Below, one piece after another: positions 14,925 to 45,012 of a stretch of 51,838 nucleotides of DNA; the first letter of the stretch is position 1; each line of letters begins with the position of its first letter. A program made the position numbers and the translations under genes. The notes beneath the pieces were generated by a model. It was not told the DNA's origin. It made no database searches and saw only the letters and a program-made list of their open reading frames with translations. The stretch covers positions 1 to 51,838 of the forward strand of contig CAZNBS010000002.1 in the NCBI GenBank assembly GCA_964570955.1. The letters are read 5' to 3'. This DNA is from an uncultured Burkholderiales bacterium. Lineage in GTDB: Bacteria > Pseudomonadota > Gammaproteobacteria > Burkholderiales > SHXO01.

Positions 14925-15997
14925 CGCGCGACCAGACCGAATTCACGGAGACTGGGCACCGCGTAGGTCAGATCGCGGTGAAGAGCCTGGGCGATGCCGA
15001 TGAAAGGCGCTGGGACGCTTTCGTCGAGAGCTGTCCAGAGGCGACCTTCTTCCACCGCGCTGGTTGGCGCACCATCCTCCGCTCGATCTTCGACCACCGA
15101 ACGCACTACCTGTACGCCGAGCGTGACCGCGAAATCGTAGGAGTGCTCCCGCTTGCGGAAGTAAGAAGCCGAATCTTCGGTCACTCGATGAGCTCGTTGC
15201 CTTTCTGCGTGTACGGCGGCGTCGCCGCGACAGATCCCGCCGCGACGCGAGCACTGCACTCGGCGGCGCGCGCACTAGCGGTGCGACGGGGCGTGGCCCA
15301 TCTCGAGTTGCGCAACCGCGAGGTGCGGGAGCCCGAATGGCCGCGACAGGACCTCTACGTGACCTTCAGGAAACCGATCCTGAACGACGCCGAGGCGAAC
15401 ATGCTCGCCATTCCGCGCAAGCAGCGCGCAATGGTGCGCAAAGGCATGAGGAACGGCCTGTCCGCCGAGATTGACGAGTCGACCGAGAGGTTCTTCAGGC
15501 TCTACGCGGACAACGTGCATCGGCATGGCACGCCTGCACTTCCGAAAGGTTATTTCGACGCGCTGCGCAAGACCTTCGGCGAGCAATGCGAGGTGCTGGT
15601 GGTCGTCGACTCCGAGCGACGGCCAGTCTCGAGCGTTCTGTCCTTCTATTTCCGCGACGAAGTGCTCCCCTACTATGCGGGCGATCACGCGCGTGCCCGC
15701 GACCTGGCCGCCAATGACTTCAAGTACTGGGAACTGATGCGCAGGGCCGCCGAGCGCGGCGCTAGCGTATTCGACTACGGGCGCAGCAAGCGCGGAACCG
15801 GATCGTACGACTTCAAGAAGAACTGGGGCTTCGCGCCGGCCCCGCTTGCCTACGAGTACTGCCTGCTCAAGGGTGAGACGATCCCGCAGAACAATCCGTC
15901 GAACCCGAGGTATCGAGCGTTGATAGCGGCGTGGCGACGGCTGCCGATCGGGATCGCCAATGCGCTGGGGCCGTTCATCGTGCGCAACCTCGGTTGA
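14921..15997 (+). CDS. FemAB-family protein, PEP-CTERM-system-associated type
   Basis: GTG 14921 overlaps the upstream TGA (GTGA). An alternative ATG at 14882 lies inside the upstream gene. Motifs FFHRAGWRTIL and FDYGRSKRGTGSYDFKKNWGF. The track ORF start at 14762 is rejected because its N-terminus is Arg/Ala-rich. Confidence 0.85.
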   Translation: MTRDQTEFTETGHRVGQIAVKSLGDADERRWDAFVESCPEATFFHRAGWRTILRSIFDHRTHYLYAERDREIVGVLPLAEVRSRIFGHSMSSLPFCVYGGVAATDPAATRALHSAARALAVRRGVAHLELRNREVREPEWPRQDLYVTFRKPILNDAEANMLAIPRKQRAMVRKGMRNGLSAEIDESTERFFRLYADNVHRHGTPALPKGYFDALRKTFGEQCEVLVVVDSERRPVSSVLSFYFRDEVLPYYAGDHARARDLAANDFKYWELMRRAAERGASVFDYGRSKRGTGSYDFKKNWGFAPAPLAYEYCLLKGETIPQNNPSNPRYRALIAAWRRLPIGIANALGPFIVRNLG

Positions 15998-16005
15998 CCC
16001 CGGAC

Positions 16006-18509: not shown

Positions 18510-20435
18510 GTGTGTGGCATCGCTGGCATTCTGGACAGCCGTGGGCAGCGTGAGATCTCCCGCGCCGCGCTCGAGCGGATGAACGACAGCCAGTATCACC
18601 GCGGGCCGGACGAGGGCGGCCTGCATGTCGAGCGCGGAGTCGCCCTCGCCCACCGTAGGCTATCGATCATCGATCTGTCGACTGGACAGCAACCACTCTA
18701 CAACGAAGACCGCAGCGTGGTCGTCGTCTTCAACGGCGAGATCTACAATTACCAGGCGCTCATCCCGGAGCTGACGGCGCTCGGACACCGATTCCGCACG
18801 AGAAGCGACACCGAGGTGATCGTGCACGCGTGGGAGGCATGGGGCGAAGCATGCGTAACGCGATTCCGTGGAATGTTTGCATTCGCCCTCTGGGACCGCG
18901 GTCGCGAGACGCTGTTCCTCGCCCGCGACCGCCTCGGAGTCAAGCCGCTCTACTACGCCGCGCTTCCTGACGGGACTATCGTCTTCGGTTCGGAGCTGAA
19001 GGCGCTCCTCGCCCACGGCGCATTGCGCCGCGACCTCGACGCTCTCGCGATCGAGGAGTACTTCGCGCTTGGCTACGTGCCGGAGCCGCGCACGATCTTC
19101 GCCGCTGCGCGCAAGCTGCCGCCGGCTCACACCCTGGCGATCAGGCGAGGCGCCCCGGTTCCCGCGCCGGTCGAGTACTGGGATGTCCGCTTCACGCTGG
19201 ATAACCGCATCTCCGATAGCGATGCCCAGGCCGAGCTAATCGAGCGGCTGCGCGAGTCCGTTCGGCTGAGGATGGTGTCGGAGGTTCCGCTCGGCGCATT
19301 CCTTTCGGGCGGAGTCGACTCGAGTGCAGTTGTTGCGACGATGGCCGGTCTCTCGAAGGAGCCGGTGCGCACCTGCTCGATCTCCTTTACCGACCCGCTG
19401 TTCGACGAGTCTCGACACGCCGCGACGGTGGCGGAGCGGTACGCGACCGTGCACCACGTCGAGCAGGTGGACAGCGACGACTTCGGTCTGCTCGAAGAGC
19501 TGGCGCGCATCTACGACGAGCCGTACGCGGACAGCTCGGCGATTCCGACATACCGCGTATGCCAGCTCGCGCGCAAGCGCGTGACGGTTGCCCTGTCGGG
19601 CGACGGTGGTGACGAAAGCTTCGCGGGCTATCGGCGATACCGACTCCACGTCGCGGAGGAAAGAATGCGGCACGCGCTGCCGCTCGCCCTCCGTCGACCG
19701 GTCTTCGGTCTTCTCGGGCGGGTCTATCCGAAGGCCGACTGGGCACCGCGCGTTTTCCGGGCGCGCAGCACGTTCCAGGCGCTCGCACGGGAAACGGTAG
19801 CTGCCTACTTCCATGGCGTTTCTATCCTCCGGGACGACATGCGGGGACAGCTGTTCAGCAATGCGCTCAAGGCGAAGCTCGGAGGCTACAACGCAGTCGA
19901 GGTATTTCGCCGGTACGCGCAAAAGGCGGAGACGAGCGATCGCCTCGGCCTCGTTCAGTATCTCGATCTGCACACGTACCTGGTCGGCGATATCAACACG
20001 AAGGTCGACCGCGCGAGCATGGCCCATTCCCTCGAGGTGCGGGAGCCCCTCATGGACCACTGTCTCGTAGAGTGGCTCGCCAGCCTGCCTTCGGATCTGA
20101 AGGTGCGCGCCGGCGAGGGCAAGTATCTGCTCAAGAAGGCTATGGAGCCGTATCTCCCGCACGACATCCTCTACCGGCCGAAGATGGGGTTCGCCGTCCC
20201 GCTCGCACGATGGTTCCGGGGCCCCTTGCGGAACCGTGTACGCGAGAGTCTGCTGGGCGACCGCCTGGCGGACACAGGACTGTTCAACCTGCGCTACGTA
20301 CGGCATCTGGTCGAGAGTCACGAATCCGGGCTGCGCGACTACAGCGCTCCGATCTGGACTCTATTGATGTTCGAGAGCTTTCTTCGCGCGAGCTTCGAGA
20401 GCCCGTCCCTGTACGCGCATGAGCGTAGCGCATAG
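18510..20435 (+). CDS. Asparagine synthase (glutamine-hydrolysing) family amidotransferase, exosortase-A-locus type
   Basis: 641 aa. GTG-TGT start gives MCGIAGIL, so the catalytic N-terminal Cys is present. PP-loop FLSGGVDSSAV. GGGAGAAG RBS. Confidence 0.93.
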   Translation: MCGIAGILDSRGQREISRAALERMNDSQYHRGPDEGGLHVERGVALAHRRLSIIDLSTGQQPLYNEDRSVVVVFNGEIYNYQALIPELTALGHRFRTRSDTEVIVHAWEAWGEACVTRFRGMFAFALWDRGRETLFLARDRLGVKPLYYAALPDGTIVFGSELKALLAHGALRRDLDALAIEEYFALGYVPEPRTIFAAARKLPPAHTLAIRRGAPVPAPVEYWDVRFTLDNRISDSDAQAELIERLRESVRLRMVSEVPLGAFLSGGVDSSAVVATMAGLSKEPVRTCSISFTDPLFDESRHAATVAERYATVHHVEQVDSDDFGLLEELARIYDEPYADSSAIPTYRVCQLARKRVTVALSGDGGDESFAGYRRYRLHVAEERMRHALPLALRRPVFGLLGRVYPKADWAPRVFRARSTFQALARETVAAYFHGVSILRDDMRGQLFSNALKAKLGGYNAVEVFRRYAQKAETSDRLGLVQYLDLHTYLVGDINTKVDRASMAHSLEVREPLMDHCLVEWLASLPSDLKVRAGEGKYLLKKAMEPYLPHDILYRPKMGFAVPLARWFRGPLRNRVRESLLGDRLADTGLFNLRYVRHLVESHESGLRDYSAPIWTLLMFESFLRASFESPSLYAHERSA

Positions 20436-26520: not shown

Positions 26521-27566
26521 GGGAACTGCGAGATCGTGGTCGCGCGAGCCGACGGGAAGCGGACCCGCGTGCGCCGCTCGATGTGTTCATCACGGTGGAC
26601 ACGGAGCTTTGGCCGTTCGCGCCGGGTTGGCCGGAGCGGCCATTCGGAGGCTCGAAGAAGGACTTCGCGGCCGAGATCGCGCAGTACATCTACGGCGAGA
26701 CTCCGCAAGGCGAGCTTGGTTTGGGTTTCCAGCTGAAGCTCCTTCGGGAGCACGGCCTGGTCGCGACATACTTCGTCGAATCGCTCTGCAGCCTCGTGCT
26801 GGGAACGGCGGCTCTGGCGGAATGGACGGGGATGATCGTTGCATCGGGGCACGAGGTCGGGCTTCACGCACACACGGAGTGGCTGCGCGAAGCGTCGGTG
26901 CCGGGTGTGACGCCCGGCTTGCGCGAGCACTTGCACGAGTATTCCGTACCCGTACAGCAAGCGATTCTTGGGCTCGCGCTCGAGCGCCTGGTCGCCGCCG
27001 GCGCTCCGCGACCGACGGCATTCCGCGCCGGAAGCTACGGGGCCGGCGTCGCGACGCTGCGAGCCTTGAAGGCCGTCGGCCTGCGCTACGACACGAGCTT
27101 GAACGCCTGCGAGCCGGGCTCGTTCCCGGACCTAGCCGACAAAGTGGCAGTGACTCAACCAGCGGTCATGGAGGGATGCCTCGAGATGCCGGTATCGGTG
27201 TTTCAAGACTACCCTGGACATCTTCGTCCGGCAAACCTGTGCGCGTGCTCGGCGGCCGAGATGCAGAGCGCCCTTCGCGGCGCCCGCGCTCGCGGGTGGG
27301 ACGCGTTCGTGATCGTTCTGCACAGCGGCGAGCTGATCCGGCGCCGCCCCCACGCGCGACAGGCGGCGCCCGCCCGGGTGCTCGTGTCGCGCTTCAGGGC
27401 GCTGTGCGAGTTCCTCGCTCGCCATCCCGACGAGTTCCGAACCCGTACGTTCGGCGGCCTCTTGCCGCGCCGAGGCTCGGGCCGCCAGTGCTATCAACGG
27501 CCGACTTCTGCGCTGCATCGGACGGCGTGGCGATTCATCGAGCAGATTGCCTCGCGCGTCGTCTGA
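26517..27566 (+). CDS. Polysaccharide deacetylase-like / hypothetical carbohydrate esterase
   Basis: No in-frame ATG near the 5' end. TTG 26517 overlaps the upstream TGA (TTGA). DVFITVDTELW, HGLVATYFVE, GHEVGLHAHTEW resemble CE4-like metal and catalytic motifs. The start is uncertain. Confidence 0.6.
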   Translation: MRELRDRGRASRREADPRAPLDVFITVDTELWPFAPGWPERPFGGSKKDFAAEIAQYIYGETPQGELGLGFQLKLLREHGLVATYFVESLCSLVLGTAALAEWTGMIVASGHEVGLHAHTEWLREASVPGVTPGLREHLHEYSVPVQQAILGLALERLVAAGAPRPTAFRAGSYGAGVATLRALKAVGLRYDTSLNACEPGSFPDLADKVAVTQPAVMEGCLEMPVSVFQDYPGHLRPANLCACSAAEMQSALRGARARGWDAFVIVLHSGELIRRRPHARQAAPARVLVSRFRALCEFLARHPDEFRTRTFGGLLPRRGSGRQCYQRPTSALHRTAWRFIEQIASRVV

Positions 27567-27634
27567 CGATCATGGTACGAACGAACACCATGGACAGCGG
27601 TTCTCGGCTCGAGAGCGTTCGACGCTTCAGCGCG

Positions 27635-28423
27635 TCAGCCAGGGCCTGGTCGCTCGCCGTGAAGAATGAATCCGTGGCAACTGAGGGCCCCGAGCAGCGG
27701 CACGCGCCTGAGCGCCCAGCCGACAAGCGGCGTTTCGGCGAGTCGCTGGAGCTTGGGCCACCGCGCCGGAACGATTGGCATCCAGTGGCGGACAATTCGC
27801 ACGAACCCAGCCGCGGAGAGCTCTGCCTTCAGCTTCGCGGCAGACTCGTAGCGCAGGTGCTGCGGCCTGCCGCTGAACCTGCGGCGCAGGATCTCGTATG
27901 CGTTTACCACGCAGGTGCGATTGAGGGCGTCTACCCAGATCTCACCACCTGGCCGGACGAGGCCGCCGAGCTCGCGCAATGCAGGGGTGGCATCCGCGAG
28001 CGCCTGCATGACACCGAAACAGACGACTCCGTCGAAAGTTTCGGGCCTGAAGGGAAGCCGCCGCACATCGGCCGCGGCGTAACTTACGTCGACCGGGCTT
28101 CGAGCTCGTGCCTTTACAAGGCTCGGAACGGAGTAATCGATTCCCGTTACACAAAGCCCTTTCTCGAGCAGAAGCCGGGTATAGGTGCCGGCACCGCAGC
28201 CTGCATCGAGCCACCGCTCAGCGGGTTGCTGCGGACCGAGCAGGCGAGCGAACCGCCGCAACCGCGCATCCAGACCGGATGCACTCCACCCCGCGATGCC
28301 GGCGTCGTCGTCGCGCTGCTCTGCAAACGCCTGGAATCGCCGTCTCCACTGGTCCTCGAAAGACCGTCCGGGTCCGCTAGGGCCGGCGCGGTTCGTGGCT
28401 TCGGTCCGACGGTTCACCGGCAC
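27635..28423 (-). CDS. Class I SAM-dependent methyltransferase
   Basis: Motif I WLDAGCGAGTY, acidic loop GIDYS, ADVRRLPF, FDGVVCFGVMQAL, LVRPGGEIWV. It is the only minus-strand gene between 6.9 and 35.2 kb. Start tentatively GTG 28423 (GTG 28417 is also possible). The upstream part of the 512-aa ORF is Arg-rich and looks non-coding. Confidence 0.8.
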   Translation of the reverse strand: MPVNRRTEATNRAGPSGPGRSFEDQWRRRFQAFAEQRDDDAGIAGWSASGLDARLRRFARLLGPQQPAERWLDAGCGAGTYTRLLLEKGLCVTGIDYSVPSLVKARARSPVDVSYAAADVRRLPFRPETFDGVVCFGVMQALADATPALRELGGLVRPGGEIWVDALNRTCVVNAYEILRRRFSGRPQHLRYESAAKLKAELSAAGFVRIVRHWMPIVPARWPKLQRLAETPLVGWALRRVPLLGALSCHGFILHGERPGPG

Positions 28424-28634
28424 GACGCCCGACTGCCCGAGCGAGGTACGCCGCCGGTAGCCTCCGCTCGACTGCTCGACCGGTCGAATGACGCGAATGC
28501 AGATGCGGCGCACGGGAGCATTGCATGAGAGATCGTACGAGAAACGCGGTGAGTTGGAAAGTGGAGAAGGCGATGCATGGCGAAAGGCGCAGCGACCGCG
28601 ACCTTGTTCCAATCGGCGCGGGAGATCAGCGCGC

Positions 28635-29885
28635 ATGACCTTCGCGCTGCGAGGCTCGACGCGCGCGAGCGAGAGCACGACAGTGGCGCGCTCGGGCAGA
28701 CCGGCTATCGCGCGAGTGAGCGTGCGCTCCGACGTCCGCGTGGTCACAGCCGAATCCGAGTTTCTAGCGCTTGGGTCCGAGTGGAACGAGCTAGTCGGGA
28801 ACAGCAGACGACCCTCGGTGTTCCTGCGCCACGAGTGGTTTGAAGCGGTGTGGCAGTGGCAAAAATGCGACTCCTCACCCTTCGTCCTGCTCTGGCTGCG
28901 GGACGGCGCACTCGCGGCCGTGCTGCCTCTCGCGATACGGGCCGATGGCTTGCGGAGCGGTGCGGTCCGATCGCTCGAGTTTCTGATGGCCCCCGATTCA
29001 CAGCTTTGTGACGTGATTACCCGCGCCGGCGACGAGAGCGCTGCCGCGAGCGCCTTTGTCGACGCGCTCGTCGAGCATAGGCGTGCCTGGGACGTGTTTC
29101 GCGTCCGCGGAGTACCTCGTGGCGGCGCGGCCGCGGCGCTCGTGGACGCATTTCGCCAACGCGGGTTCGTCACGGACGCACTGGAACCGGACCGGAACCT
29201 CTACATCCCGTTGGGCGGCGGCTGGGAAGACTATTACAAGAACCGAAGCCGAAGCCTCAAGAAGGCAAACAATCTCGCCGTGAACCGCCTGCAGAGGGCC
29301 GGCGAAGTGTCCGTCGAGTGGCTCGCGCCGGGTGCACGAACGCCACCGTCCGATCTGGATCGGACAATAGCGACGGTGATCGACATCTCCGCGCGCAGCT
29401 GGAAGGGCAACATCGCGACCGGTCTCGACAAGCCGGGACCACAGGCGTTCATCCGTCGCCTCTCGGAGCGCGCGAACGACCAGGGCTGGCTATCCGTGTG
29501 GACGGTGCGCCTCAACGGCAGGCCGGTCGCAATGGAATATCAGCTCGTTGCGGACGGCAACGTCTATGCGTTGCGCGGCGACTTCGATGCGGCCTGCGAC
29601 ACGATTTCGCCCGGCTCCTATCTCAGCCGCCAGCTGCTGGAAAGGCTGTTCGGTCAAGGACTTCGGCGTTACTTCCTGGGTCCAGGCGAGAACGAGTACA
29701 AGCTGCGCTGGACGGACCAAGCGGAGCTGTTGGACGACCAGCGGATCTACGGGCGCACGATGCGCGGCCATTGGCTTGCGCTCTGGCGGCGCTGCTTGAA
29801 GCCGTGCCTGCGCGCTGTTCGCGACGGGATTACGCGCCACAAGAACCCGCCCGTGCTTGCGAAACCAGACCAGGAGGATGCATGA
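28635..29885 (+). CDS. FemAB/BioF2(CelD)-like GNAT-fold protein (Acetyltransf_6-type)
   Basis: ATG 28635 gives MTFALRG.... LRHEWFEAVWQW, YYKNRSRSLKKANNLAVNRL, ISPGSYLSRQLLERLF, ENEYKLRWT: the typical CelD/BioF2-like pattern. Confidence 0.8.
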   Translation: MTFALRGSTRASESTTVARSGRPAIARVSVRSDVRVVTAESEFLALGSEWNELVGNSRRPSVFLRHEWFEAVWQWQKCDSSPFVLLWLRDGALAAVLPLAIRADGLRSGAVRSLEFLMAPDSQLCDVITRAGDESAAASAFVDALVEHRRAWDVFRVRGVPRGGAAAALVDAFRQRGFVTDALEPDRNLYIPLGGGWEDYYKNRSRSLKKANNLAVNRLQRAGEVSVEWLAPGARTPPSDLDRTIATVIDISARSWKGNIATGLDKPGPQAFIRRLSERANDQGWLSVWTVRLNGRPVAMEYQLVADGNVYALRGDFDAACDTISPGSYLSRQLLERLFGQGLRRYFLGPGENEYKLRWTDQAELLDDQRIYGRTMRGHWLALWRRCLKPCLRAVRDGITRHKNPPVLAKPDQEDA

Positions 29886-30109: not shown

Positions 30110-30820
30110 ATGCACACGCGATCGCAAGCCAGGCTCCTATCGAAGATTCGTGCACCGCGCGTACGTTGTGTGCAGCTCGTCTTCGCATGCATCCTTGCAA
30201 CCGGGCTCCTTTCGAGCGCGGGGGCGCAATCGTGCGGCAGCCTTGCCAACGACGATTTCGGTCCGTTCGATTATCGCAAGGCTGCACCGGAAAACCTGCA
30301 GGTGGTCGAGTCGTACCATTTCACGCCTTCTGTCGAAAGCCTCAGCCAGGGGACGACTACCTTCATCGGCGGCGATATTGACTACACGCTGCGCGCTTTT
30401 CCGAATCATCCGCGCGCACTGCTCGCGATGGTTCGCCTCGCTGAACGAGAGAAACGCGACCCGCCGGAAGGTGCGCGCTACACCGTCAAGTGCTGGCTCG
30501 ATCGGGCTGCCCAGTTTGCGCCCGACGACGGCCAGGTGCAAATGGTGTACGGATACTTTCTCGCTCGCGCGAGCCGTCCGGACCAGGCTATCAAGAAACT
30601 GGAGCGGGCATATGAACTCATTGGTGAGAATGCGAACGTGCACTACAACCTCGGACTCGTCTACGCGGATCTCAAGGAGTATGACAAAGCGCTCCACCAT
30701 GCCCACGAGGCGTATCGACTTGGATTCTCGCTGCCCGGCTTGCGGAACCGGCTCGCGCAAGCCGGCAAGTGGCGCGAGCCCAACGTGATCGAGCGGGCTA
30801 CCCCGTCCTCCGCGAAGTAA
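30110..30820 (+). CDS. Secreted TPR-like repeat protein, function unknown
   Basis: 236 aa. GCGGAGG RBS 9 nt before the ATG. Signal peptide VQLVFACILATGLLSSAGAQS. C-terminal TPR-like helices (ANVHYNLGLVYADLKEYDKALHHAHEAYRLG). Confidence 0.7.
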   Translation: MHTRSQARLLSKIRAPRVRCVQLVFACILATGLLSSAGAQSCGSLANDDFGPFDYRKAAPENLQVVESYHFTPSVESLSQGTTTFIGGDIDYTLRAFPNHPRALLAMVRLAEREKRDPPEGARYTVKCWLDRAAQFAPDDGQVQMVYGYFLARASRPDQAIKKLERAYELIGENANVHYNLGLVYADLKEYDKALHHAHEAYRLGFSLPGLRNRLAQAGKWREPNVIERATPSSAK

Positions 30821-30986
30821 GCAGAGGCTCGCCCGGTCCGCCGGCTTGTCTATGGCCCGGACGCGTCGGGCGTCGGATATGTGCCGCAGCGCCGCGTCGC
30901 AATCCGTTCGGGCGCGGGTATGAAATCGGCCTGGATGAACTTGTTCTTGCTTCCGGTTGAGCGGATACCAAGATAGGAGTTGTTGC

Positions 30987-32828
30987 TTGGCGGGAATCGG
31001 TGGTTGGTATGAACTCAGTGTGCCGGACGCGACCTCAACCCGCGCCGCAATGGGACGCCGGCTCGGCGCCCTGGACGGCAGCCAGGCGCGGTCGGTCCAC
31101 GGGCGCGGATTTGGACTCGTCGCGGCTGGCGAGGAACGCGTTGCGGCGCTGGTCGGCGAGAACGATATCGCCGTCGCGATCCACGGCCACCCGCGGTGGG
31201 AGCGCGGTTCCGCGGTTCTATCTTCGATCGAGGAGGTCGCGCGTGCGCTTGCCGGCGCGTACCGCCGACGCGGCCCGGACTGCCTGACGGACCTACGCGG
31301 CGACTTTGCTGTCGCCGTCGTGGACGCGGCCCGCGGCGAGCTGTTGCTCGCCGTCGACCGCATGGCGATCAGGGATCTCCTCTACCAACGGACTGGTGAG
31401 GGCGTGATCTTCGGTGTCACCTACGGTGTAATCGCCGAGCACCCGAGTTCCAGCCGCCGCGTCCACCTGCAAGGGATATACGACTACGCGTTCTTCCACA
31501 TGGTGCCCGGTCCGGCGACGATCTACGCAGGCGTGGAGCGCGTGCCTCCCGGCGGGTACGCGAGATTCGCCAACGGCAAGGTCGAGGCAAATGCATACTG
31601 GCGGATGCAGTTCCTCGAATCCGGTCGCGACGGTTTCGGGACCCTGAGAGATCAGCTCCTCGAGTCGCTGCGCAAAGGCGTACGCGCGGGAGCCGACAAC
31701 GTCGAGTGCGGCGCATTCCTGAGCGGCGGAACCGACAGCTCCACCGTCTCGGGACTGCTGGGCGATATCACTGGCCGGCCGGCACGCACGTTCTCCATTG
31801 GATTCGCCGCGAGCGGCTACGACGAAACCGAATACGCGCGAGTCGCCGTGCGCCACTTCAGGACGGATCACCGCGAATACTACGTGACCCCGGAGGACGT
31901 GGTCGCGACCATCCCCCGAATCGCCGCCGCATACGATCAACCGTTCGGAAACGCTTCCGCAGTTCCAACGTACCACTGCGCGCGGCTTGCCGCGGCCAGT
32001 GGCGTCACTCGCATGCTTGCCGGCGACGGTGGTGACGAGCTCTTCGCGGGCAACGCCCGCTATGCGACGCAGCAACTGCTCGCAATGTACGGCGTCTTGC
32101 CGCGCTTGCTGAGACAGGCAGTAATCGAGCCGCTTGCCTTGAGTTTCCGTGCGGATTCTCTGCCGGCGCCGATGCGAAAGATGCGCAGCTATGTCGAGCA
32201 GGCGGCAAAGCCGCTAGCCGAGCGGTACGAGGCCTACAATCTGCTAGAACGGCTGGGTCCGGAGGAAGTTTTCAGCGCGGAGTTCCTGCGAGAGATCGAT
32301 CGGCGGCGGCCGCTTGCGCGGCTGGAAGAGCCGCTCGGTGTGAGCAATGCGCAAAGCCTCATCAACCGACTTCTCGCCATCGATCTGAAGCTCACGCTTG
32401 CGGACAACGATCTGCGCAAGGTCACGCGCATGTGCGAGCTGGCGGGAGTCGACGTGTTCTTCCCGCTGCTGTACGAGGACGTGGTCGAGCTATCCGCTCG
32501 CGTGCCGCCGCGCCTCAAGCTCAAGGGAACACGATTGCGCCATTTCTTCAAGGAAGCGCTTCGAGGTTTTCTGCCAGACGAGATCATTCGGAAGCAGAAG
32601 CATGGATTCGGACTGCCAATCGGCACGTGGCTCGTAAGTCATCCACCGCTGAGGTCGCTTGCGGGAGACGCGCTGGCGACGCTGCGCAAGCGGCAGCTCG
32701 TGCGGTCCGCGTTCATCGATCGTCTCCTGGACGAGCACCTGGCTGCGCACCCCGCATACTACGGGACCATGGTCTGGCTGCTGATGATGCTGGAGATGTG
32801 GATCCAGGCGCACGAGGTATCGCTGTAG
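30987..32828 (+). CDS. Asparagine-synthase-family protein lacking the N-terminal catalytic Cys (adenylating/amidating enzyme)
   Basis: AGGAG RBS 7 nt upstream of TTG 30987 gives M-AGIGGWY where AsnB has M-CGI. The PP-loop FLSGGTDSSTV is retained. Starting at TTG 30957 would also not place a Cys at position 2. Confidence 0.85.
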   Translation: MAGIGGWYELSVPDATSTRAAMGRRLGALDGSQARSVHGRGFGLVAAGEERVAALVGENDIAVAIHGHPRWERGSAVLSSIEEVARALAGAYRRRGPDCLTDLRGDFAVAVVDAARGELLLAVDRMAIRDLLYQRTGEGVIFGVTYGVIAEHPSSSRRVHLQGIYDYAFFHMVPGPATIYAGVERVPPGGYARFANGKVEANAYWRMQFLESGRDGFGTLRDQLLESLRKGVRAGADNVECGAFLSGGTDSSTVSGLLGDITGRPARTFSIGFAASGYDETEYARVAVRHFRTDHREYYVTPEDVVATIPRIAAAYDQPFGNASAVPTYHCARLAAASGVTRMLAGDGGDELFAGNARYATQQLLAMYGVLPRLLRQAVIEPLALSFRADSLPAPMRKMRSYVEQAAKPLAERYEAYNLLERLGPEEVFSAEFLREIDRRRPLARLEEPLGVSNAQSLINRLLAIDLKLTLADNDLRKVTRMCELAGVDVFFPLLYEDVVELSARVPPRLKLKGTRLRHFFKEALRGFLPDEIIRKQKHGFGLPIGTWLVSHPPLRSLAGDALATLRKRQLVRSAFIDRLLDEHLAAHPAYYGTMVWLLMMLEMWIQAHEVSL

Positions 32829-32916
32829 ACCGCGCATGCTCTGGCTCATTCTGCCGAGCGCCCGGGAGCGCAGGCAACGCTGTCGCGATTCGGATGCTGC
32901 GCAGACCGCGCTCGGG

Positions 32917-34245
32917 ATGCGCGGCCTACGCGCGCGCGAGCCGAGCCGTGACGATGGCGCGCGCCGGCCCACAGCCGTACGATGCCCGCCGGGCAGTGGA
33001 TCGCTATCGATCCGCGCGACCGGAACGGCGCTGATCTCGTTCGCGCTATGCCTGCCGCACGCGTTCGCCCACGTGAAGGCAGCCAATCCCAGCGACTACC
33101 ACGGGATTCTCCGCGACTTGAAGCCCGGGGATCGGATCCTGCTCGCGCCGGGGGTCTACACGGAGGGCCTGACGCTGGACGGACTGCGGGGGACCGCGCG
33201 CTCCCCGATAGTGATCGAAGGGCCGGCAGACGGTTACGCGCGGTTTCCTGCCCGAAGCAACCGCAACGTTGTGAGCCTGCGCTCATCCAGCCACATCGTG
33301 ATTCGGAACCTGTTCATCGACCTCGGCGACACGTCCGCAGACGCCGTGAAGGCGGAGCGCTCACGCATCGAACTGCGACACATTGTCCTCGAGAACCTGA
33401 CCATTATCGGGCGCGGCGCGGATCAGCAAAGTGTCGGCATATCCACCAAAGCGCCGGCCACGTCCTGGCACATTCGCGACAATCTCATAATGGGGGTGGG
33501 GACAGGCGTGTACCTCGGCGATTCGGACGGCGGTGCGCCGTTCGTTGGCGGGATCGTCGAGAGAAACGCCATTCTGAACACGCGTGGCTACTCCCTTCAG
33601 ATCAAGCACCAGGTTTCACGACGAGAATCGAGCGGGACTGCTGCGGGCCGTCGTGAGACGATCATCCGCAGCAACTTCTTTTCCAAGGCGGTCGGGGGCA
33701 GCACTGGGCCGGCTGCGCGCCCGAATGTGCTGATCGGGCATCTGCCGCTATCCGGCAAGGACGCGGACGACCGTTACTTGATCTCTGGGAATGTATTCTT
33801 TGCGAATCCTGGCGAGGCGCTCTTCCAGGGGGAGGGAAACATCACCTTGCGCAGTAACCTGCTCTTGAATCCCGCCGGACCCGGGATAAACGTGCTGCCG
33901 CACAACGCGTTCCCGCGTCAAATCGAGATTCTCGGCAATTTCGTGGTCACCGCGGGCGAGCCGATACGCGTGAAAGGCGTCCATCCCGACTTCACTCCGA
34001 GCGTCACACTCAACCGCATCCACCGAATTCGATCCGTGGAGAGCCGAGATGAGGCAAACGGGGCCTCGGCCGACTGGCTCGCCTTCTTGGCGGCGCTCGC
34101 CGAGACCGGCGGCGCCGGGCGGGTAGCCGAACTGCGCGCCGCGCTGCGGGCGGCGTGCGGCGCCGCCCGCCATGGCCATCTACAACCGCCCAAAGAGGCC
34201 CTGATTCCGGTGGAGCACTTTACCTGTACGGGGGCGAGTCGATGA
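32917..34245 (+). CDS. Secreted right-handed parallel beta-helix repeat protein (possible polysaccharide lyase/hydrolase/epimerase)
   Basis: Repeating segments IVIRNLFIDLG / IVLENLTIIGRG / HIRDNLIMGVGTGVYLG / GIVERNAILNTRGYSLQI / ISGNVFF typical of PbH1 repeats. Hydrophobic leader ALISFALCLPHAFA. The start (ATG 32917 or 32836) is uncertain. Confidence 0.65.
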   Translation: MRGLRAREPSRDDGARRPTAVRCPPGSGSLSIRATGTALISFALCLPHAFAHVKAANPSDYHGILRDLKPGDRILLAPGVYTEGLTLDGLRGTARSPIVIEGPADGYARFPARSNRNVVSLRSSSHIVIRNLFIDLGDTSADAVKAERSRIELRHIVLENLTIIGRGADQQSVGISTKAPATSWHIRDNLIMGVGTGVYLGDSDGGAPFVGGIVERNAILNTRGYSLQIKHQVSRRESSGTAAGRRETIIRSNFFSKAVGGSTGPAARPNVLIGHLPLSGKDADDRYLISGNVFFANPGEALFQGEGNITLRSNLLLNPAGPGINVLPHNAFPRQIEILGNFVVTAGEPIRVKGVHPDFTPSVTLNRIHRIRSVESRDEANGASADWLAFLAALAETGGAGRVAELRAALRAACGAARHGHLQPPKEALIPVEHFTCTGASR

Positions 34246-35255
34246 TGCGATCGGATACCTGCATGGAGCCTGACCGCGCTCGAGAGATCCCGGGCACGGC
34301 AGCGGATGATGCGCCCTTGGCGATCGACGCCTGGCGGGAGGCTCGGTTCGAGCTGGTCTACCGCGCCGGTTCGGTGCGGATCTTCGCGCGTCGCTTCAAG
34401 GTGCTACAACTGCAGGGGCATTATCTGGACATGCCGGCGGATCCTGACCAGTTACGGCCCCCGCTGAGCCGACTCGGCGAGAAGGTCGAGGCCCTGGTCG
34501 CGCGGTCTCAACCCATTCGTGAACCCCTTCCCCGTCTCGCGCTGGTCGACGGCGCGCTACGCTTTGTCGTTGCCCAGTACAGCCGGCATCATGCCGACCT
34601 GACGGGATCGTTTGATGGCTACCTGTCGAAATTTGCCGCGAAAACCCGCAACACCCTCAAGCGCAAGGTGCGCAAGTTTCTCGATCGCGGCAGCGGCAGC
34701 TACATGCGCGAGTACAGGCGACCGGAGGAGTTGGCGGATTTCTACCGGCGTGCGCGGTCGGTCTCGGCGCTCACCTACCAGGAACGCCTGTTGGACGCCG
34801 GCCTTCCGGACGAGCCAGCGTATCTCGACGAGCTTGTCCGGCTCGCGCGAGCCGACGCCGTGCGTGCGTACCTGCTGTTCCAGAACGACGAAGCGATCGC
34901 GTATCTATGCTGCCCAATCGTCAACGGCGTGCTTCTCTACGATTATCTCGGCTACGATCCAAAGCACGCCGATCTCTCGCCGGGTACGGTGCTGCAGTAC
35001 CTCGCGTTCCAATCGTTGTTCGCCGAGGGAAAATTCCGCGCCTTTGACTTTACCGAAGGAGACGGCGCGCACAAGCGACTTTTCGGGACGCACGAGACGC
35101 TCTGCGCGGACATCTGCTTCTTTCCCGCCACGACCGGCGTCCGGTTCTGGCTCGGACTGCACATGGGCCTCGAGCGCCTTTCCGAGAAGGCAGTCGCTAT
35201 CCTTGAGCGGCTGGGTCTCAAGGCGGGCCTGAAGAAGCTCGTGCGTCGAGGCTGA
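34242..35255 (+). CDS. FemAB/BioF2(CelD)-like GNAT-fold protein (short paralogue)
   Basis: ATG 34242 overlaps the upstream TGA (ATGA). KTRNTLKRKVRKF, TYQERLLDAGL, LGYDPKHADLSPGTVLQY, GDGAHKRLFGT match the motif order of the paralogues at 36125 and 37406. Confidence 0.75.
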   Translation: MMRSDTCMEPDRAREIPGTAADDAPLAIDAWREARFELVYRAGSVRIFARRFKVLQLQGHYLDMPADPDQLRPPLSRLGEKVEALVARSQPIREPLPRLALVDGALRFVVAQYSRHHADLTGSFDGYLSKFAAKTRNTLKRKVRKFLDRGSGSYMREYRRPEELADFYRRARSVSALTYQERLLDAGLPDEPAYLDELVRLARADAVRAYLLFQNDEAIAYLCCPIVNGVLLYDYLGYDPKHADLSPGTVLQYLAFQSLFAEGKFRAFDFTEGDGAHKRLFGTHETLCADICFFPATTGVRFWLGLHMGLERLSEKAVAILERLGLKAGLKKLVRRG

Positions 35256-35308: not shown

Positions 35309-36037
35309 CTATCCGTCGACACCGTCCTCGATTTCTGAGCCGTCGCTGTCGTCATCGCCCTCATCGTCGTAGTCGGAGCCCATCCCCTCCTCGTCGTCGC
35401 CATCGTCGGTCGAGCTGTAGCCCGCGGTGTCCCTGCCTTCGTCATCGTCGCCCGAACTGTGGCCGGCGATATCCTCATCGTCGTCGTCGTCACCAGCCGA
35501 GCCGGGGCCTTCTGTGTCCTCCCGGTCAGTATCGACGAGCGAGCCAAGACCCGAGACACCCTCTTCATCTTCATCGTCGTCCGAGCTCGACCCGGCGATG
35601 TTCTGGGAGGGCGCCCCGGCCGAGTCATCGCTCCGGTCGTCATCGGAGTCGGCGGCCGTCTCGCGGTCGTCGGTGCCGCGTTCCGCGATGCCGTAGTCGC
35701 TATCACTGGTCGCGGCAGCGAGCTGCGCGAACCGCGGCCATGATTCACTCTCCGTCGCCGAGCGAGAAGAGCCCTCCGGGCTGGTCTCGATCTGGAAGAA
35801 AGCCTCGGCCGCACTGGCCGGACCGGCACCAGCGGCAACTATCGCTAGCGCGGCGGCAAGCGGCGCTACTCGTCTCAAGCGCAAACGAAGGGTGCGCAGC
35901 GGGTACGGGCGTTCTTCACCCCTCGGCTGCTTGCTCTTGAGTGCAGCTTGCGCCGCCGCAGCGGTACGTGGCTCCTGAGCGTTCTCCATTGCCATTGGAT
36001 GCATTGCCCTCGATGAGCGGATGTGCGCGTCATTCAT
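35309..36037 (-). CDS. Extremely acidic (Asp/Glu/Ser/Gly-rich) low-complexity secreted protein
   Basis: Signal-peptide-like RLRRVAPLAAALAIVAAGAGPASA-AEA, followed by runs such as SSSDDDEDEEG, SAGDDDDDEDIAGH, GDDDEGRD, DYDDEGDDDSDGSE. Same strand as the flippase/GNAT unit upstream. In-frame TTG codons at 35884 and 35878 would give a classical signal peptide, so the start is uncertain. Confidence 0.55.
   Translation of the reverse strand: MNDAHIRSSRAMHPMAMENAQEPRTAAAAQAALKSKQPRGEERPYPLRTLRLRLRRVAPLAAALAIVAAGAGPASAAEAFFQIETSPEGSSRSATESESWPRFAQLAAATSDSDYGIAERGTDDRETAADSDDDRSDDSAGAPSQNIAGSSSDDDEDEEGVSGLGSLVDTDREDTEGPGSAGDDDDDEDIAGHSSGDDDEGRDTAGYSSTDDGDDEEGMGSDYDDEGDDDSDGSEIEDGVDG
35312..35701. 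repeat. Low-complexity GAC/GAT/GAG-biased triplet-periodic tract
   Basis: Four ORFs over 60 aa are open across it in different frames and strands (35309..36037 -, 35218..35838 -, 35427..35696 +, 35459..35743 +). They translate as poly-D/E, T/R-rich or poly-S. Confidence 0.6.
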
Positions 36038-42567: not shown

Positions 42568-42649
42568 GCGGCTTCGTCCCGCACCTCGATTCAAGAGAGT
42601 CTCCGCTTCGGCGGTGAGTCGCAAACGATCCGTGGAGAGAATGCGTCAG

Positions 42650-43930
42650 ATGACCACTATTGCAGTCGTGGGCCTCGGCTATGTGGGGCTGCCACTGGCC
42701 GTCGAATTCGGCAGGAGATACCCGACTATCGGCTTCGACCTCTCGCGCCGAAAGATTGCGGCGTATCGCGAGTGCGTCGATCCGACCGGCGAGGTCTCGA
42801 GCGAGGCATTTCGTGCGGCAGGCGGGCTGACCTGCACCACTGACCCTGGAGCGCTCGCCAGCGCGGACTTCCTCGTGGTCGCGGTTCCGACGCCGGTCGA
42901 TGCCGCGCACCAGCCGGATTTCGAGCCGTTGCTCGGTGCGGCTGAGACGGTCGGGCGAAACCTCAAGCGTGGTGCAACCATCGTCTTCGAATCCACCGTT
43001 TATCCGGGGGCGACCGAAGAAATCTGCGTACCTGCGATGGAGCGCTCATCAGGGTTGCGGTGGAAGGAGGACTTCCACGTTGGATACTCGCCCGAACGCA
43101 TAAACCCGGGCGACAAGCAGCGGACTCTCACCAAGATCGTCAAGGTCGTCGCCGGTGATTCGCCTGAGACTCTCGAGCGAGTCGCGAGCATGTATGCGAG
43201 CGTGGTGCCGGCCGGCGTGCACCGGGCGAGCAGCATCAAGGTCGCCGAGGCTGCAAAGGTCATCGAGAACACGCAGCGCGATCTCAATATCGCGCTGATG
43301 AACGAACTGGCGTTGATCTTTCACCGCATGGACATCGACACCCTGGAGGTGCTGGAGGCGGCCGGCACCAAGTGGAACTTCCTGAGCTTCCGGCCGGGCT
43401 TGGTTGGCGGCCACTGCATTGGCGTAGACCCGTACTACCTTACCCATAAGGCGGAAATGCTCGGGTACCACCCGCAGGTGATCTTGGCCGGCCGCCGTAT
43501 CAACGACGGCATGGGCAAGTACGTCGCCGAGCAGACGGTGAAGCGCATTATCCAGAAGGGGTTCCCGGTCAAGGGCGCAGCGGTAAACGTGCTCGGGCTC
43601 ACCTTCAAGGAGAACTGCCCGGACCTTCGTAACTCGAAAGTGATCGACGTCGTGCGCGAACTTGAGTCCTATGGTGCGGTCGTTCGCGTCCACGATCCGG
43701 TGGCCGATCCCGCCGAGGCGATGCACGAGTACGGGGTGAAGCTCGTCGCGTGGGCGGATCTGCCTGCAGCCACCGCGGTTGTCGCCGCGGTCGCCCATCG
43801 ACAGTTCACCGAGAGAACGGTGGACGATCTCGTCGCAAAGATCGTGCCGGGCGGGCTGTTCGTGGACGTGAAGGGCCAGGCGGACGCCGCCGCGCTTGCC
43901 GCCCGTGGGTTCGCCGTATGGCGGTTGTAG
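42650..43930 (+). CDS. UDP-N-acetyl-hexosamine 6-dehydrogenase (TviB/WbpO-like nucleotide sugar dehydrogenase)
   Basis: ATG 42650 lies 12 nt after the [27 protein letters not shown] Rossmann motif, catalytic [12 protein letters not shown]. Size of about 426 aa, as for TviB-type enzymes. Confidence 0.9.
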
Positions 43931-45012
43931 CCATGGCTGTCCCAGAGCTCCTGGGTGCAGTGCGCAGCCGTCTCGCCGGCATTCGAATGCGCTGGCTGAT
44001 CACCGGCAGCGCGGGCTTCATCGGCTCGCACGTCCTCGAGAACTTGCTGCGGCTCGAGCAGAGCGTGGTTAGCCTCGACAACTTCGCCACCGGCCATCGT
44101 TCGAACCTGGACGAGGTCCGTGCGACGGTCGGTCAGGTTGCCTGGCGACGACACCGCTTCATCGAGGGGGACATTCGCGACCCGCTGGCTTGCCAGATTG
44201 CCTGCCGCGACGTCGACGTGGTCGTGCATCTCGCCGCACTCGGATCCGTGCCGCGGTCCCTCGGCGACCCGATCGGCTCGCACGAGACAAACGTCACGGG
44301 ATTCCTGAACGTGCTCTACGCGGCGAAGAATGCCGGGGTCCGCCGCGTAGTCTACGCATCGTCGAGCTCGGTCTACGGCGATGATGCAGCGCTCCCCAAG
44401 GTCGAGAGTAGGGTCGGCCGTCCGCTCTCGCCGTACGCCGTAACCAAGTGCGCGAACGAACTCTATGCAGAGGTGTTCACGCGATCCTATGGTCTCGAGT
44501 CGATCGGCCTGCGGTTCTTCAACGTGTTCGGTACACGTCAGGACCCGAAGGGCGCATATGCCGCGGTGATTCCACGCTGGGCGCGGGCAATCCTCAATGG
44601 CGAACCCGTGATCATCAACGGGGACGGCGAAACGACGCGCGACTTCTGCTACGTGGCGAACGCCGTCCAGGCGGCCTTGCTCGCCGGGACGACGACCTCG
44701 CGTGAAGCACTGACTCGGGTCTACAACGTGGCGGTGGGCGGGCGAACCAGCCTGAACGAGCTCTACCGATTGCTGAGCTCGCTGCTCGCCGAGAAGCACG
44801 GGCACACGCGTGCGGCGTGCCCTCAGTACGGTCCGTTCCGTGACGGCGACGTGCGGCATTCGCAGGCGGATATCGCAAGTGCCGCGCGGCTGCTCGGGTA
44901 CGCGCCGTCGCACACTCTCGAGCAGGGGTTGCGGGAGGCGGTGCCCTGGTACATCGAGCGATTCGCAGCAAGCCGCAACTCGGTGCCAATCGCCTCGCGT
45001 AACATGGCGTAA
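43918..45012 (+). CDS. NAD-dependent UDP-sugar 4-epimerase (TviC/WbpP-like)
   Basis: [14 protein letters not shown] Rossmann motif, [13 protein letters not shown] (YxxxK), and NFATGH typical of the WbpP/TviC subgroup. ATG 43933, 2 nt after the upstream stop, is an alternative start. Confidence 0.9.

What the first reader, a model, noticed from the sequence alone, without database searches (positions are those of the whole stretch)
30987..32828. Asparagine-synthase paralogue that has lost the N-terminal catalytic cysteine
The core AsnB-type gene (18510) starts GTG-TGT, giving MCGIAGIL. This paralogue, preceded by a good AGGAG RBS, starts TTG-GCG, giving M-AGIGGWY. The class-II glutaminase nucleophile, which must be residue 1 after Met removal, is therefore Ala. 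Two Cys codons lie just upstream (TGT TGC at 30981..30986), but no start codon directly precedes them. The PP-loop SGGTDSS is intact, so adenylation chemistry is probably retained. Known Cys-less AsnB homologues act as lactam synthetases or peptide cyclases (beta-lactam synthetase, CarA, lasso-peptide cyclases), or use free ammonia or amines.
Basis: partly seen in the sequence, partly recalled or inferred. Interest (0 to 1): 0.6.

Follow-up and report, generated by a model that had tools for sequence, protein, structure and literature searches.

The report
Glutaminase-dead asparagine-synthetase-like enzyme in slime locus
This intact gene encodes an asparagine-synthetase-like enzyme that cannot split glutamine but keeps its ATP-using half; it belongs to a large, old, unstudied family found in exosortase-type slime-polysaccharide gene clusters and probably makes an amide bond without glutamine.

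Summary
The gene at 30987..32828 starts at TTG, 7 nt after an AGGAG box, and encodes M-A-G-I-G-G-W where canonical paralogues read M-C-G-I-A-G-W. The PP-loop (SGGTDSS) is intact.

The missing Cys is a family trait, not a local accident:
- None of 113 close homologues, nor any of the 150 distant representatives and 80 genome copies that align there, has Cys at that position.
- In the close family the Arg49 loop is deleted, NGE has become xGH, and Asp98 is hydrophobic.
- The adenylation residues (SGGxDS, D347, D350/E351, D475, K478, K538) and a hallmark N322 are invariant or nearly so in those 230 distant representatives and genome copies.

Evidence that the gene is functional:
- The AlphaFold model is confident (pLDDT 92.6) and matches TsnB9, AsnB, beta-lactam synthetase and CarA.
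- dN/dS against a 74%-identical syntenic orthologue is 0.17.

Context:
- The family tracks XrtA: 38 of 46 carrier genomes have XrtA, against 14 of 254 others.
- This gene lies in a subclade linked to FemAB-like GNAT (PF13480) and TPR genes.
- A second copy in the same genome follows the XrtA-associated ligase and decarboxylase genes.

Most likely it is a glutamine-independent, ATP-dependent amide synthetase acting on a precursor of the polysaccharide. The substrate is unknown. This scan has noted the same family several times on other DNA.

The parts
30975..30979 (+). AGGAG ribosome-binding site, 7 nt before the start codon
   Evidence: Read directly. Conserved in the orthologous locus L085.
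30981..30986 (+). TGT TGC, two in-frame Cys codons in the RBS-to-start spacer; not part of the protein
   Evidence: The orthologue L085 has CGT GAT here.
30987..32828 (+). Cys-less AsnB-family gene, TTG start, 613 aa
   Evidence: P0003 is an identical 613-aa record. Scores 947 bits on the family HMM. dN/dS is 0.17.
30987..31586 (+). Degenerate Ntn/GATase-like N-terminal domain (about residues 1-200): Ala at the Cys1 position, Arg49 loop deleted, NGE changed to HGH, Asp98 changed to Val
   Evidence: Weak Pfam GATase_7/GATase_6 matches over residues 98-155 only. pLDDT at least 90. dN/dS 0.21.
31587..32825 (+). Asn_synthase (ATP pyrophosphatase) domain with conserved catalytic residues
   Evidence: PF00733, 269.6 bits. 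D347, D350, E351, D475, K478, K538 and N322 are invariant or nearly so across 230 family members.
31722..31742 (+). PP-loop SGGTDSS (residues 246-252)
   Evidence: S-G-G-x-D-S is present in 229 of 230 family members; the other is not aligned there.
28635..29885 (+). FemAB/CelD-like GNAT (PF13480 Acetyltransf_6), likely functional partner
   Evidence: A PF13480 gene lies directly upstream in 6 of the 7 members of this subclade. A natural fusion protein exists, P0179.
30110..30820 (+). Small TPR protein with an apparent signal peptide, directly upstream
   Evidence: Pfam TPR hits. The same TPR-GNAT-AsnB-like trio is seen in L002, L003, L011, L041 and L085.
32917..34245 (+). Right-handed beta-helix protein directly downstream
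   Evidence: A weak Beta_helix hit. A gene in the same position in L085 carries no Pfam hit on record. Beta-helix genes lie near the AsnB-like gene in L001 and L002.
34242..35255 (+). Second PF13480 GNAT of the module, overlapping its upstream neighbour by 4 nt
   Evidence: Synteny with L085.
18510..20435 (+). Canonical, Cys-containing XrtA/PEP-CTERM amidotransferase (TIGR03108) of the same locus, used for comparison
   Evidence: 1073 bits against a cut-off of 817. N-terminus V/M-CGIAGIL.
42614..45012 (+). TviB-like dehydrogenase (42614..43930) and TviC-like 4-epimerase (ORF 43750..45012): predicted UDP-GlcNAcA/UDP-GalNAcA supply and a candidate source of the carboxylate substrate
   Evidence: NF011729 at 482.7 bits and NF011728 at 426.1 bits. 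These are the best matches, but both are below the equivalog cut-offs.

Best explanation
The gene encodes a cytoplasmic AsnB-fold enzyme with two parts. The N-terminal Ntn/glutaminase-like domain is a folded but catalytically dead vestige. The C-terminal ATP-pyrophosphatase domain appears fully functional.

Proposed mechanism:
1. The enzyme adenylates a carboxylate, using the PP-loop, D347, D350/E351 and K538.
2. A nitrogen nucleophile that does not come from glutamine hydrolysis attacks the acyl-AMP, forming an amide.

The gene is an accessory enzyme of an exosortase-A (XrtA/PEP-CTERM)-type exopolysaccharide locus. The most probable acyl substrate is a carboxylate on a precursor of the repeat unit. 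Candidates are the hexosaminuronic acid made by the TviB/TviC-like pair of the locus, or an amino-acid substituent on a sugar. The most probable nucleophile is an amine or amino acid rather than ammonia. The enzyme would work together with the neighbouring FemAB-like GNAT proteins.

Shown here: loss of the glutaminase site, retention of the adenylation site, purifying selection, family membership, and linkage to XrtA loci and to the GNAT/TPR genes.

Inferred: the identity of the carboxylate and of the nucleophile, and the claim that an amide bond is formed at all.
For: Glutaminase site lost:
- Cys1 is Ala here, and 0 of 113 close homologues have Cys at that position.
- In those homologues the Arg49 loop is deleted in all 113, Glu76 is His in 111 of 113, and Asp98 is hydrophobic in nearly all.
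- No Cys appears at this position in the 150 distant representatives or the 80 genome copies that align there.

Synthetase site kept:
- SGGxDS, N322, D347, D350, E351, D475, K478 and K538 are invariant or nearly so in those 230 sequences.
- These map to E348, D351/E352, D384, R387 and K449 of E. coli AsnB in the HMMER alignments.

Fold: pLDDT is 92.6 and pTM 0.92. Foldseek top hits are TsnB9, AsnB, beta-lactam synthetase, CarA and human ASNS.

Selection:
- dN/dS is 0.17 overall, 0.21 for the N-terminal domain and 0.14 for the synthetase domain.
- Ten of the 13 departures from the family consensus are shared with the orthologue.

Family: 947 bits on the family HMM, against at most 307 bits for canonical paralogues. 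The family is monophyletic (support 100).

Context:
- The window is an XrtA-type EPS locus.
- 38 of 46 carrier genomes have XrtA above its cut-off, against 14 of 254 others, usually 9-35 kb away on the same contig.
- A GNAT6 gene lies upstream in 6 of the 7 subclade members.
- The module is fully syntenic in L085.
- A natural GNAT6 plus AsnB-like fusion exists.
- A TviB/TviC-like pair lies in the window.
Against: - No biochemical or genetic data exist for any verified member of this family.
- The substrate inference rests on neighbourhood alone. TviB-like genes lie within 8 kb of the family gene in only 5 of 84 other loci.
- The N-terminal pocket residues W7 and H68 are conserved only among close relatives. 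H68 is variable in the wider family, so no dedicated amine-binding site is evident.
- Free ammonia as the nucleophile cannot be excluded.
- About half of the loci had no recognised immediate partner gene in my limited HMM set.
Confidence: 0.55

Rival explanations
1. The enzyme is an ammonia-dependent amidotransferase. It adenylates a uronic-acid (or other) carboxylate and uses free NH3 to make a primary amide, acting as a glutamine-independent counterpart of WbpS or TIGR03108.
For: The synthetase site is intact. From established knowledge, E. coli AsnB with Cys1 mutated keeps ammonia-dependent synthetase activity. The locus can make a hexosaminuronic acid.
Against: The same locus, and many other loci, already encode a canonical glutamine-dependent amidotransferase. 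The family has its own invariant active-site residues, N322 and D475, which differ from all seven canonical paralogues in this genome. This points to a different substrate or nucleophile.
Confidence: 0.2
2. The enzyme is an intramolecular lactam synthetase or cyclase, like beta-lactam synthetase, CarA or the lasso-peptide cyclases. It would close an amide ring within an aminoacylated sugar or a peptide.
For: The characterised AsnB homologues I know of that keep a dead N-terminal domain are cyclases (established knowledge). Foldseek matches beta-lactam synthetase and CarA at E of about 1e-18 to 1e-19. FemAB-like neighbours could supply a free amine on the same molecule.
Against: The lasso-cyclase model NF033535 scores 100.8 bits against a cut-off of 525, and the macrolactam-cyclase model 60.5 against 300. 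No precursor peptide or leader-peptidase gene was seen nearby. The position equivalent to AsnB Glu348 is Asp, as in amidotransferases. From memory, beta-lactam synthetase and CarA have Tyr there.
Confidence: 0.1
3. The enzyme acts on the small-molecule or anchor branch of the XrtA system rather than on a sugar. That branch comprises the TIGR03098 ligase, the TIGR03099 decarboxylase, a carrier protein and hydrolases. The enzyme would, for example, ligate an amino acid or amine that is later attached to the EPS or to PEP-CTERM proteins.
For: In 23 of 85 loci the family gene sits directly beside the TIGR03098/TIGR03099 pair. This includes the second copy in this genome. Ten further loci have the XrtA hydrolase 1 gene adjacent.
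Against: The window's gene lies in the GNAT-linked subclade, which lacks the ligase and decarboxylase next to it. The two copies in this genome are only 49% identical, so they may have different substrates.
Confidence: 0.1
4. The protein is a non-catalytic pseudoenzyme or a decaying pseudogene, or the gene has a mis-called start that hides an N-terminal Cys.
For: The first 85 residues evolve faster than the rest (dN/dS 0.31). There are 13 departures from positions conserved at 90% or more in the family. Two Cys codons lie just upstream.
Against: The ORF is intact and full length. All adenylation residues are present. dN/dS is 0.17. Ten of the 13 departures are shared with the orthologue. The upstream Cys codons are not conserved, while the TTG start and the RBS are. 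An upstream Cys would also be out of register with the C-G-I-x-G-W motif.
Confidence: 0.04

Closest known systems
XrtA/PEP-CTERM system amidotransferase (NCBIfam TIGR03108, WbpS-like AsnB homologues of polysaccharide loci)
   Same: Both have the two-domain AsnB fold. They are about 30% identical over residues 88-608. Both have the PP-loop and the P-[FY]-x-x-x-S-A-[VI]-P-T-Y and GDGGDE motifs. Both occur in the same kind of locus, often in the same locus.
   Different: The family lacks Cys1 and the glutamine-binding residues. It scores 299 bits against a cut-off of 817. It forms a separate clade. Its hallmark residues N322 and D475 replace D/E/G and I/L/M in the canonical paralogues.
Beta-lactam synthetase (1JGT, 1M1Z) and carbapenam synthetase CarA (1Q15)
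   Same: Both are AsnB-fold enzymes with a retained but non-catalytic N-terminal domain and an active adenylating domain. They are Foldseek hits at E of about 1e-18 to 1e-19.
   Different: Sequence identity is only 14-17%. These enzymes work in antibiotic pathways, not EPS loci. The family keeps an acidic residue at the AsnB Glu348 position. From memory, the cyclases use a Tyr-Glu dyad; I did not align this directly. The family's proteins are also about 100 residues longer.
TsnB9 hydroxyamidotransferase (7YLZ)
   Same: It is the best match in both sequence and structure (110.6 bits with the family profile; Foldseek E 5e-25). It shares the M-x-G-[VI]-x-G-W N-terminal strand.
   Different: TsnB9 has the Cys1 nucleophile (MCGVAGW). 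According to the literature as I recall it, TsnB9 takes its nitrogen from a glutamine-like donor.
E. coli AsnB and human ASNS
   Same: The fold and the adenylation residues are shared.
   Different: The family has no glutaminase site. The aspartate-site residues T322, T323 and R325 of AsnB correspond to P319, F320 and N322 (the residue roles are from memory). It scores 218.7 bits on TIGR01536 against a cut-off of 267.1.
Lasso-peptide cyclases (McjC type, NF033535)
   Same: These are also Cys-less AsnB-family adenylating enzymes.
   Different: The score is 100.8 bits against a cut-off of 525. There is no precursor peptide or leader-peptidase context.

Membership tests
Class-II (Ntn) glutamine amidotransferase / asparagine synthase, glutamine-hydrolysing (TIGR01536) | Cys as the first residue after Met removal | tested here: not met
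   The residue is Ala2 here. 0 of 113 close homologues have Cys at this position. The register is fixed by TsnB9 and by an in-genome canonical paralogue.
Class-II (Ntn) glutamine amidotransferase / asparagine synthase, glutamine-hydrolysing (TIGR01536) | Glutamine-site residues (AsnB Arg49, Asn74-Gly75-Glu76, Asp98) | tested here: not met
   The Arg49 loop is deleted, N-G-E has become H-G-H, and Asp98 is Val.
Class-II (Ntn) glutamine amidotransferase / asparagine synthase, glutamine-hydrolysing (TIGR01536) | Score at or above the curated cut-off | tested here: not met
   218.7 bits against a cut-off of 267.1.
AsnB-fold ATP pyrophosphatase (Pfam PF00733 Asn_synthase) | PP-loop SGGxDS and a domain match above the gathering score | tested here: met
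   269.6 bits against a gathering score of 21. SGGTDSS lies at residues 246-252.
XrtA/PEP-CTERM system amidotransferase (TIGR03108) | Score at or above the curated cut-off, over the full length | tested here: not met
   299.1 bits against a cut-off of 816.9, aligned only from residue 100 onward. The true member of this family in the window is the gene at 18510, at 1073 bits.
Lasso-peptide / macrolactam cyclases (NF033535, NF033561) | Score at or above the cut-off, with precursor-peptide context | tested here: not met
   100.8 bits against 525, and 60.5 against 300. The neighbours are EPS genes.
Beta-lactam synthetase / CarA | Tyr-Glu catalytic dyad and a lactam-forming substrate pocket | tested here: inconclusive
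   The fold matches. The AsnB-Glu348 position is Asp347. The equivalence to the dyad of the lactam synthetases comes from memory and was not aligned directly.
Unnamed Cys-less AsnB-like family of XrtA-type EPS loci (NCBI name: asparagine synthase-related protein) | High score on the family HMM, clearly separated from canonical AsnB | tested here: met
   947 bits. Members score 650-1055 bits and canonical paralogues 230-307 bits. The family is monophyletic with support 100.
Unnamed Cys-less AsnB-like family of XrtA-type EPS loci (NCBI name: asparagine synthase-related protein) | Hallmark residues N322 and D475, plus a Cys-less N-terminus | tested here: met
   Both residues are present in the window's protein. 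Both are invariant in 230 family members.
Unnamed Cys-less AsnB-like family of XrtA-type EPS loci (NCBI name: asparagine synthase-related protein) | Location in an exosortase-A-type EPS locus | tested here: met
   The window carries TIGR03007, 03018, 03016, 03015, 03006, 03019, 03087, 03088, 03108, 04063, 03097, 03013 and 03027. The XrtA gene itself was not found in the window.

The most novel reading that the evidence does not exclude
Together with the FemAB-like PF13480 proteins (five paralogues in this locus) and the TPR protein, the Cys-less AsnB-like enzyme builds amide-linked amino-acid or short-peptide side chains, or cross-links, on a GalNAcA-containing exopolysaccharide. The AsnB-like enzyme would join a uronic-acid carboxylate to an amino group. 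The FemX-like enzymes would extend the chain from aminoacyl-tRNA. The result would be a peptidoglycan-style peptide decoration of a secreted polysaccharide.
Probability: 0.12. Interest if true: 0.7.

Novelty: new variant of a known kind. Interest (0 to 1): 0.4.

Why it matters
Exosortase-type slime-polysaccharide loci are widespread in environmental and wastewater bacteria. According to the papers found and the Rubrivivax study, they underlie floc and biofilm formation. Their accessory chemistry is almost entirely unknown.

This family is one of the commonest unassigned enzymes in these loci. It occurs in 46 of 300 sampled genomes of the class and is tightly tied to XrtA. Its conserved partners (a FemAB-like GNAT, or the ligase/decarboxylase pair) and invariant hallmark residues make it a well-defined target for biochemistry.

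Knowing which amide bond it makes would reveal a structural feature of these polymers. It would also add a glycan-directed branch to the set of glutaminase-dead AsnB enzymes, which as far as I know comes so far from antibiotic and lasso-peptide pathways.

Tried and rejected
1. An upstream start giving an N-terminal Cys. Rejected: TTG 30957 puts the Cys at residues 9-10. The Cys codons are not conserved in the orthologue, while the RBS and TTG are.

2. The 'Cys5 plus propeptide' reading, raised for relatives that begin MSGICGW in an earlier scan note. Rejected:
- Position 5 is Cys in only 60 of 113 homologues and is Gly here.
- TsnB9 (MCGVAGW) and a paralogue in the same genome (MCGIAGW) fix the register, so that residue 2 is the Cys1 position.
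- The rest of the glutamine site is absent.

3. A Ser/Thr N-terminal nucleophile. In the close family residue 2 is Ser or Thr in 81%, but Ala, Ile, Asn, Lys or Arg in most of the rest, and it is Ala here. The neighbouring His68 is not conserved in the wider family. Unlikely.

4. Pseudogene or decay. Rejected by dN/dS and by the substitutions shared with the orthologue.

5. A tight link to TviB/TviC-like genes. It is seen in the window, but a TviB-like gene occurs in only 5 of 84 other loci within 8 kb, so it remains a weak clue.

6. PDB sequence searches with the two flanking GNAT proteins found nothing useful.

7. Literature. No paper on this family was found. Craig et al. 2011 (PMC3187218) is not held. 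Haft et al. 2006 does not mention these genes.

9. The coordinates of the structure model are not available in the Python box, so the pocket and tunnel could not be analysed.
Full report
**Observation**

The sequence reads ...AAGAT AGGAG TTGTTGC TTG GCG GGA ATC GGT GGT TGG....
- AGGAG lies at 30975..30979 and TTG at 30987, with a 7-nt spacer.
- The product begins M(TTG)-A-G-I-G-G-W-Y.
- The in-frame TGT TGC at 30981..30986 lies within that spacer.
- The longest ORF starts at TTG 30957. That start would only place the two Cys at residues 9-10.
- The protein database holds exactly the 613-aa product of the 30987 start (P0003).
- The closest homologue (P0004, locus L085, 74% identity) also starts at TTG behind a conserved AGGAG. 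Its two upstream codons are CGT GAT, so the Cys codons are a chance feature of the spacer.
- The core gene at 18510 begins GTG-TGT, giving CGIAGIL.
- The PP-loop FLSGGTDSST is intact.

**Register of the N-terminus**

A canonical paralogue in the same genome begins MCGIAGW. The solved homologue TsnB9 begins MCGVAGW, and the family profile aligns to it as msgilGw. Residue 2 of this protein (Ala) therefore sits at the nucleophile position. The Cys that many relatives carry at residue 5 aligns with an Ala in the canonical enzymes. It is present in only 60 of 113 close homologues and is Gly here. It is not a hidden nucleophile.

**What the protein is**

- Pfam finds a strong Asn_synthase domain (269.6 bits) and only weak partial GATase matches over residues 98-155.
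- No curated NCBIfam model reaches its cut-off:
  - TIGR03108: 299 bits against a cut-off of 817.
  - TIGR01536: 219 against 267.
  - Lasso cyclase: 101 against 525.
- The protein has more than 100 full-length homologues at 50-55% identity, and at least 150 cluster representatives at 35-50% identity with E below 1e-115.

Among the 113 close homologues:
- The Cys1 position holds Ser 61, Thr 31, Ala 7, Ile 6 and Asn 3, and never Cys.
- The Arg49 loop is deleted in all of them.
- Glu76 is His in 111.
- Asp98 is Val, Phe or Ile in most.

In the wider family about half of the N-termini no longer align at all, and the His is not conserved.

By contrast, the following are invariant or nearly so (147-150 of the 150 representatives and all 80 genome copies): S246, G247, G248, D250, S251, N322, D347, D350, E351, D475, K478 and K538. 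In the HMMER alignments to E. coli AsnB these correspond to the PP-loop, R325 (to N322), E348, D351, E352, D384, R387 and K449. The functional roles of those AsnB residues come from my knowledge of the AsnB literature.

N322 and D475 set the family apart from all seven canonical paralogues of this genome, which carry D/E/G and I/L/M at those positions.

**Structure and selection**

- AlphaFold2 run on a 92-sequence alignment gives pLDDT 92.6 and pTM 0.92. The N-terminal domain is as confident as the rest.
- Foldseek finds TsnB9, AsnB, beta-lactam synthetase, CarA and human ASNS, with E from 5e-25 to 1e-16.
- Against the syntenic orthologue, dN/dS is 0.17 overall: 0.21 for residues 1-200 (0.31 for residues 1-85) and 0.14 for the synthetase domain.
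- Thirteen positions depart from residues conserved at 90% or more in the family. Ten of the 13 are shared with the orthologue.

The gene is therefore functional. Its N-terminal domain is a constrained fold rather than debris.

**Genomic setting**

The window is an exosortase-A-type EPS locus. It carries the chain-length determinant, tyrosine kinase, outer-membrane protein, ATPase, deacetylase, FemAB-like protein, the stp1, stp2 and stp3 glycosyltransferases, the canonical amidotransferase TIGR03108, a Wzy-like ligase, the priming transferase TIGR03013 and the export protein.

The target sits in a variable block: PF13480 GNAT (28635), TPR (30110), the AsnB-like gene, a beta-helix protein (32917), PF13480 GNAT (34242), an acidic protein, two more PF13480 GNATs, and Wzx. 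The whole block is syntenic in L085.

The genome, a MAG that is 87% complete, holds nine full-length AsnB paralogues.
- Seven begin MCG.
- Two are Cys-less.
- The second Cys-less copy (C16, 49% identical) directly follows the XrtA-associated acyl-CoA ligase TIGR03098 and the PLP decarboxylase TIGR03099.

**Family-wide context**

In the 85 loci examined (80 from named genomes and MAGs, plus the window, the C16 copy and three homologue loci):
- The family gene follows, or in two cases precedes, the ligase/decarboxylase pair in 23.
- A PF13480 GNAT lies just upstream in 9 (including the window).
- The XrtA hydrolase 1 gene is adjacent in 10.
- Wzy, Wzx and GT4 genes are common neighbours.
- The canonical TIGR03108 gene often lies within 8 kb.

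A maximum-likelihood tree shows:
- The family is monophyletic against the canonical amidotransferases (support 100).
- The window's gene falls in a supported subclade (support 98) of seven rows, six of them GNAT-linked.
- That subclade sits beside the large decarboxylase-linked clade.

One database protein (P0179, 1032 aa) is a fusion of PF13480 with the AsnB-like protein.

In 300 genomes sampled across the class, 46 carry the family. Of those, 38 have XrtA above its cut-off, against 14 of the other 254. The two genes usually lie 9-35 kb apart on one contig. Related genomes are not independent, so this is an association and not a statistical test.

**Mechanism**

Shown: glutamine cannot be the nitrogen donor, the adenylation machinery is complete and under strong constraint, and the enzyme belongs to the tailoring part of XrtA-type EPS loci.

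Inferred: the enzyme activates a carboxylate as acyl-AMP and couples it to ammonia or, more probably, to an amine or amino acid.

Three clues bear on the substrate:
1. The locus makes a hexosaminuronic acid. A TviB-like dehydrogenase and a TviC-like epimerase are the best matches at 482.7 and 426.1 bits, both below the equivalog cut-offs.
2. The partner PF13480 proteins are distant FemX relatives. The core paralogue hits the FemX model at E 5e-9. FemX-type enzymes add amino acids to amines.
3. The invariant D475 sits where AsnB has D384. In the canonical paralogues of this genome, which use other substrates, that position is hydrophobic.

None of these clues identifies the substrate. The TviB link is seen in only 5 of 84 other loci within 8 kb.

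**Rivals**

The rival readings are ammonia-dependent amidation, intramolecular lactam formation, action on the ligase/decarboxylase small-molecule branch, and inactivity. They are weighed in the Rival explanations section.

**Literature**

I found no study of this family.

In Rubrivivax gelatinosus the psc1 EPS cluster holds three 'asparagine synthase' genes. One of them, RGS1_10435, lies next to wzxC and has a Thauera orthologue, Tmz1t_3265. It was hit in a transposon screen for loss of aggregation (PMC3684757). A Rubrivivax MAG locus (L059) has the Cys-less gene next to wzx, so RGS1_10435 may belong to the family. I could not verify this.

**Verdict**

The gene is a typical member of a large, old, uncharacterised Cys-less AsnB-like family tied to exosortase-type EPS loci. 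It is not an oddity of this genome.

This scan has flagged the same family several times on other DNA, which fits its wide distribution. The fold and the general chemistry are known. The substrate, the partner proteins and the product are not.

Noticed in passing
G000:C16:181-5024 (locus L004, minus strand): A second Cys-less AsnB-like paralogue (MSGICGW..., 49% identical to the target) lies directly downstream of the XrtA-associated acyl-CoA ligase (TIGR03098, 816 bits) and PLP decarboxylase (TIGR03099, 630 bits). The hydrolase 1 gene (TIGR03100) lies divergently next to them. The contig ends just past the gene.
   Followed up: partly
window 14762-18482; G000:C403:387-1172: The locus has nearly all the XrtA-system marker genes, but no exosortase A gene was found in the window. 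An stp1 glycosyltransferase (15931..17289) lies between the FemAB-like and stp2 genes. From memory, XrtA often sits there. The best exosortase match in the whole MAG is on C403, at 142.7 bits, below the 208-bit cut-off. The MAG is 87% complete.
   Followed up: partly
window 41188-45012: A priming glycosyltransferase (TIGR03013) is followed by a TviB-like UDP-GlcNAc 6-dehydrogenase and a TviC-like 4-epimerase. This predicts a supply of UDP-GlcNAcA/UDP-GalNAcA for the polymer.
   Followed up: partly
protein P0179 (1032 aa, metagenomic representative): This is a natural fusion of a PF13480 (Acetyltransf_6) domain with a Cys-less AsnB-like protein. It supports functional coupling between the two. 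It could also be an artefact in which a frameshift merged two overlapping genes.
   Followed up: partly
window 28635-40133 and L085:26-10947: The whole block (GNAT, TPR, AsnB-like, beta-helix, GNAT, acidic protein, two GNATs, Wzx) is conserved gene for gene in a metagenomic contig (JGI 3300036986). The AsnB-like proteins of the two blocks are 74% identical.
   Followed up: partly
G000, nine places: The genome holds nine full-length AsnB-family paralogues. Seven have an MCG start and two are Cys-less. That is an unusually large set. Two of the canonical copies lie in tandem on C72.
   Followed up: no
window 26609-28528 and 35309-36037: The long + strand ORF at 26609..28528 (which overlaps the methyltransferase ORF on the opposite strand) and the acidic 242-aa ORF at 35309..36037 match no Pfam or NCBIfam model.
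   Followed up: no
L013, L023, L027, L055, L059, L067, L071, L077: In these genomes the canonical TIGR03108 amidotransferase and the Cys-less family gene lie within about 8 kb of each other. The two enzymes therefore regularly coexist in one locus.
   Followed up: partly
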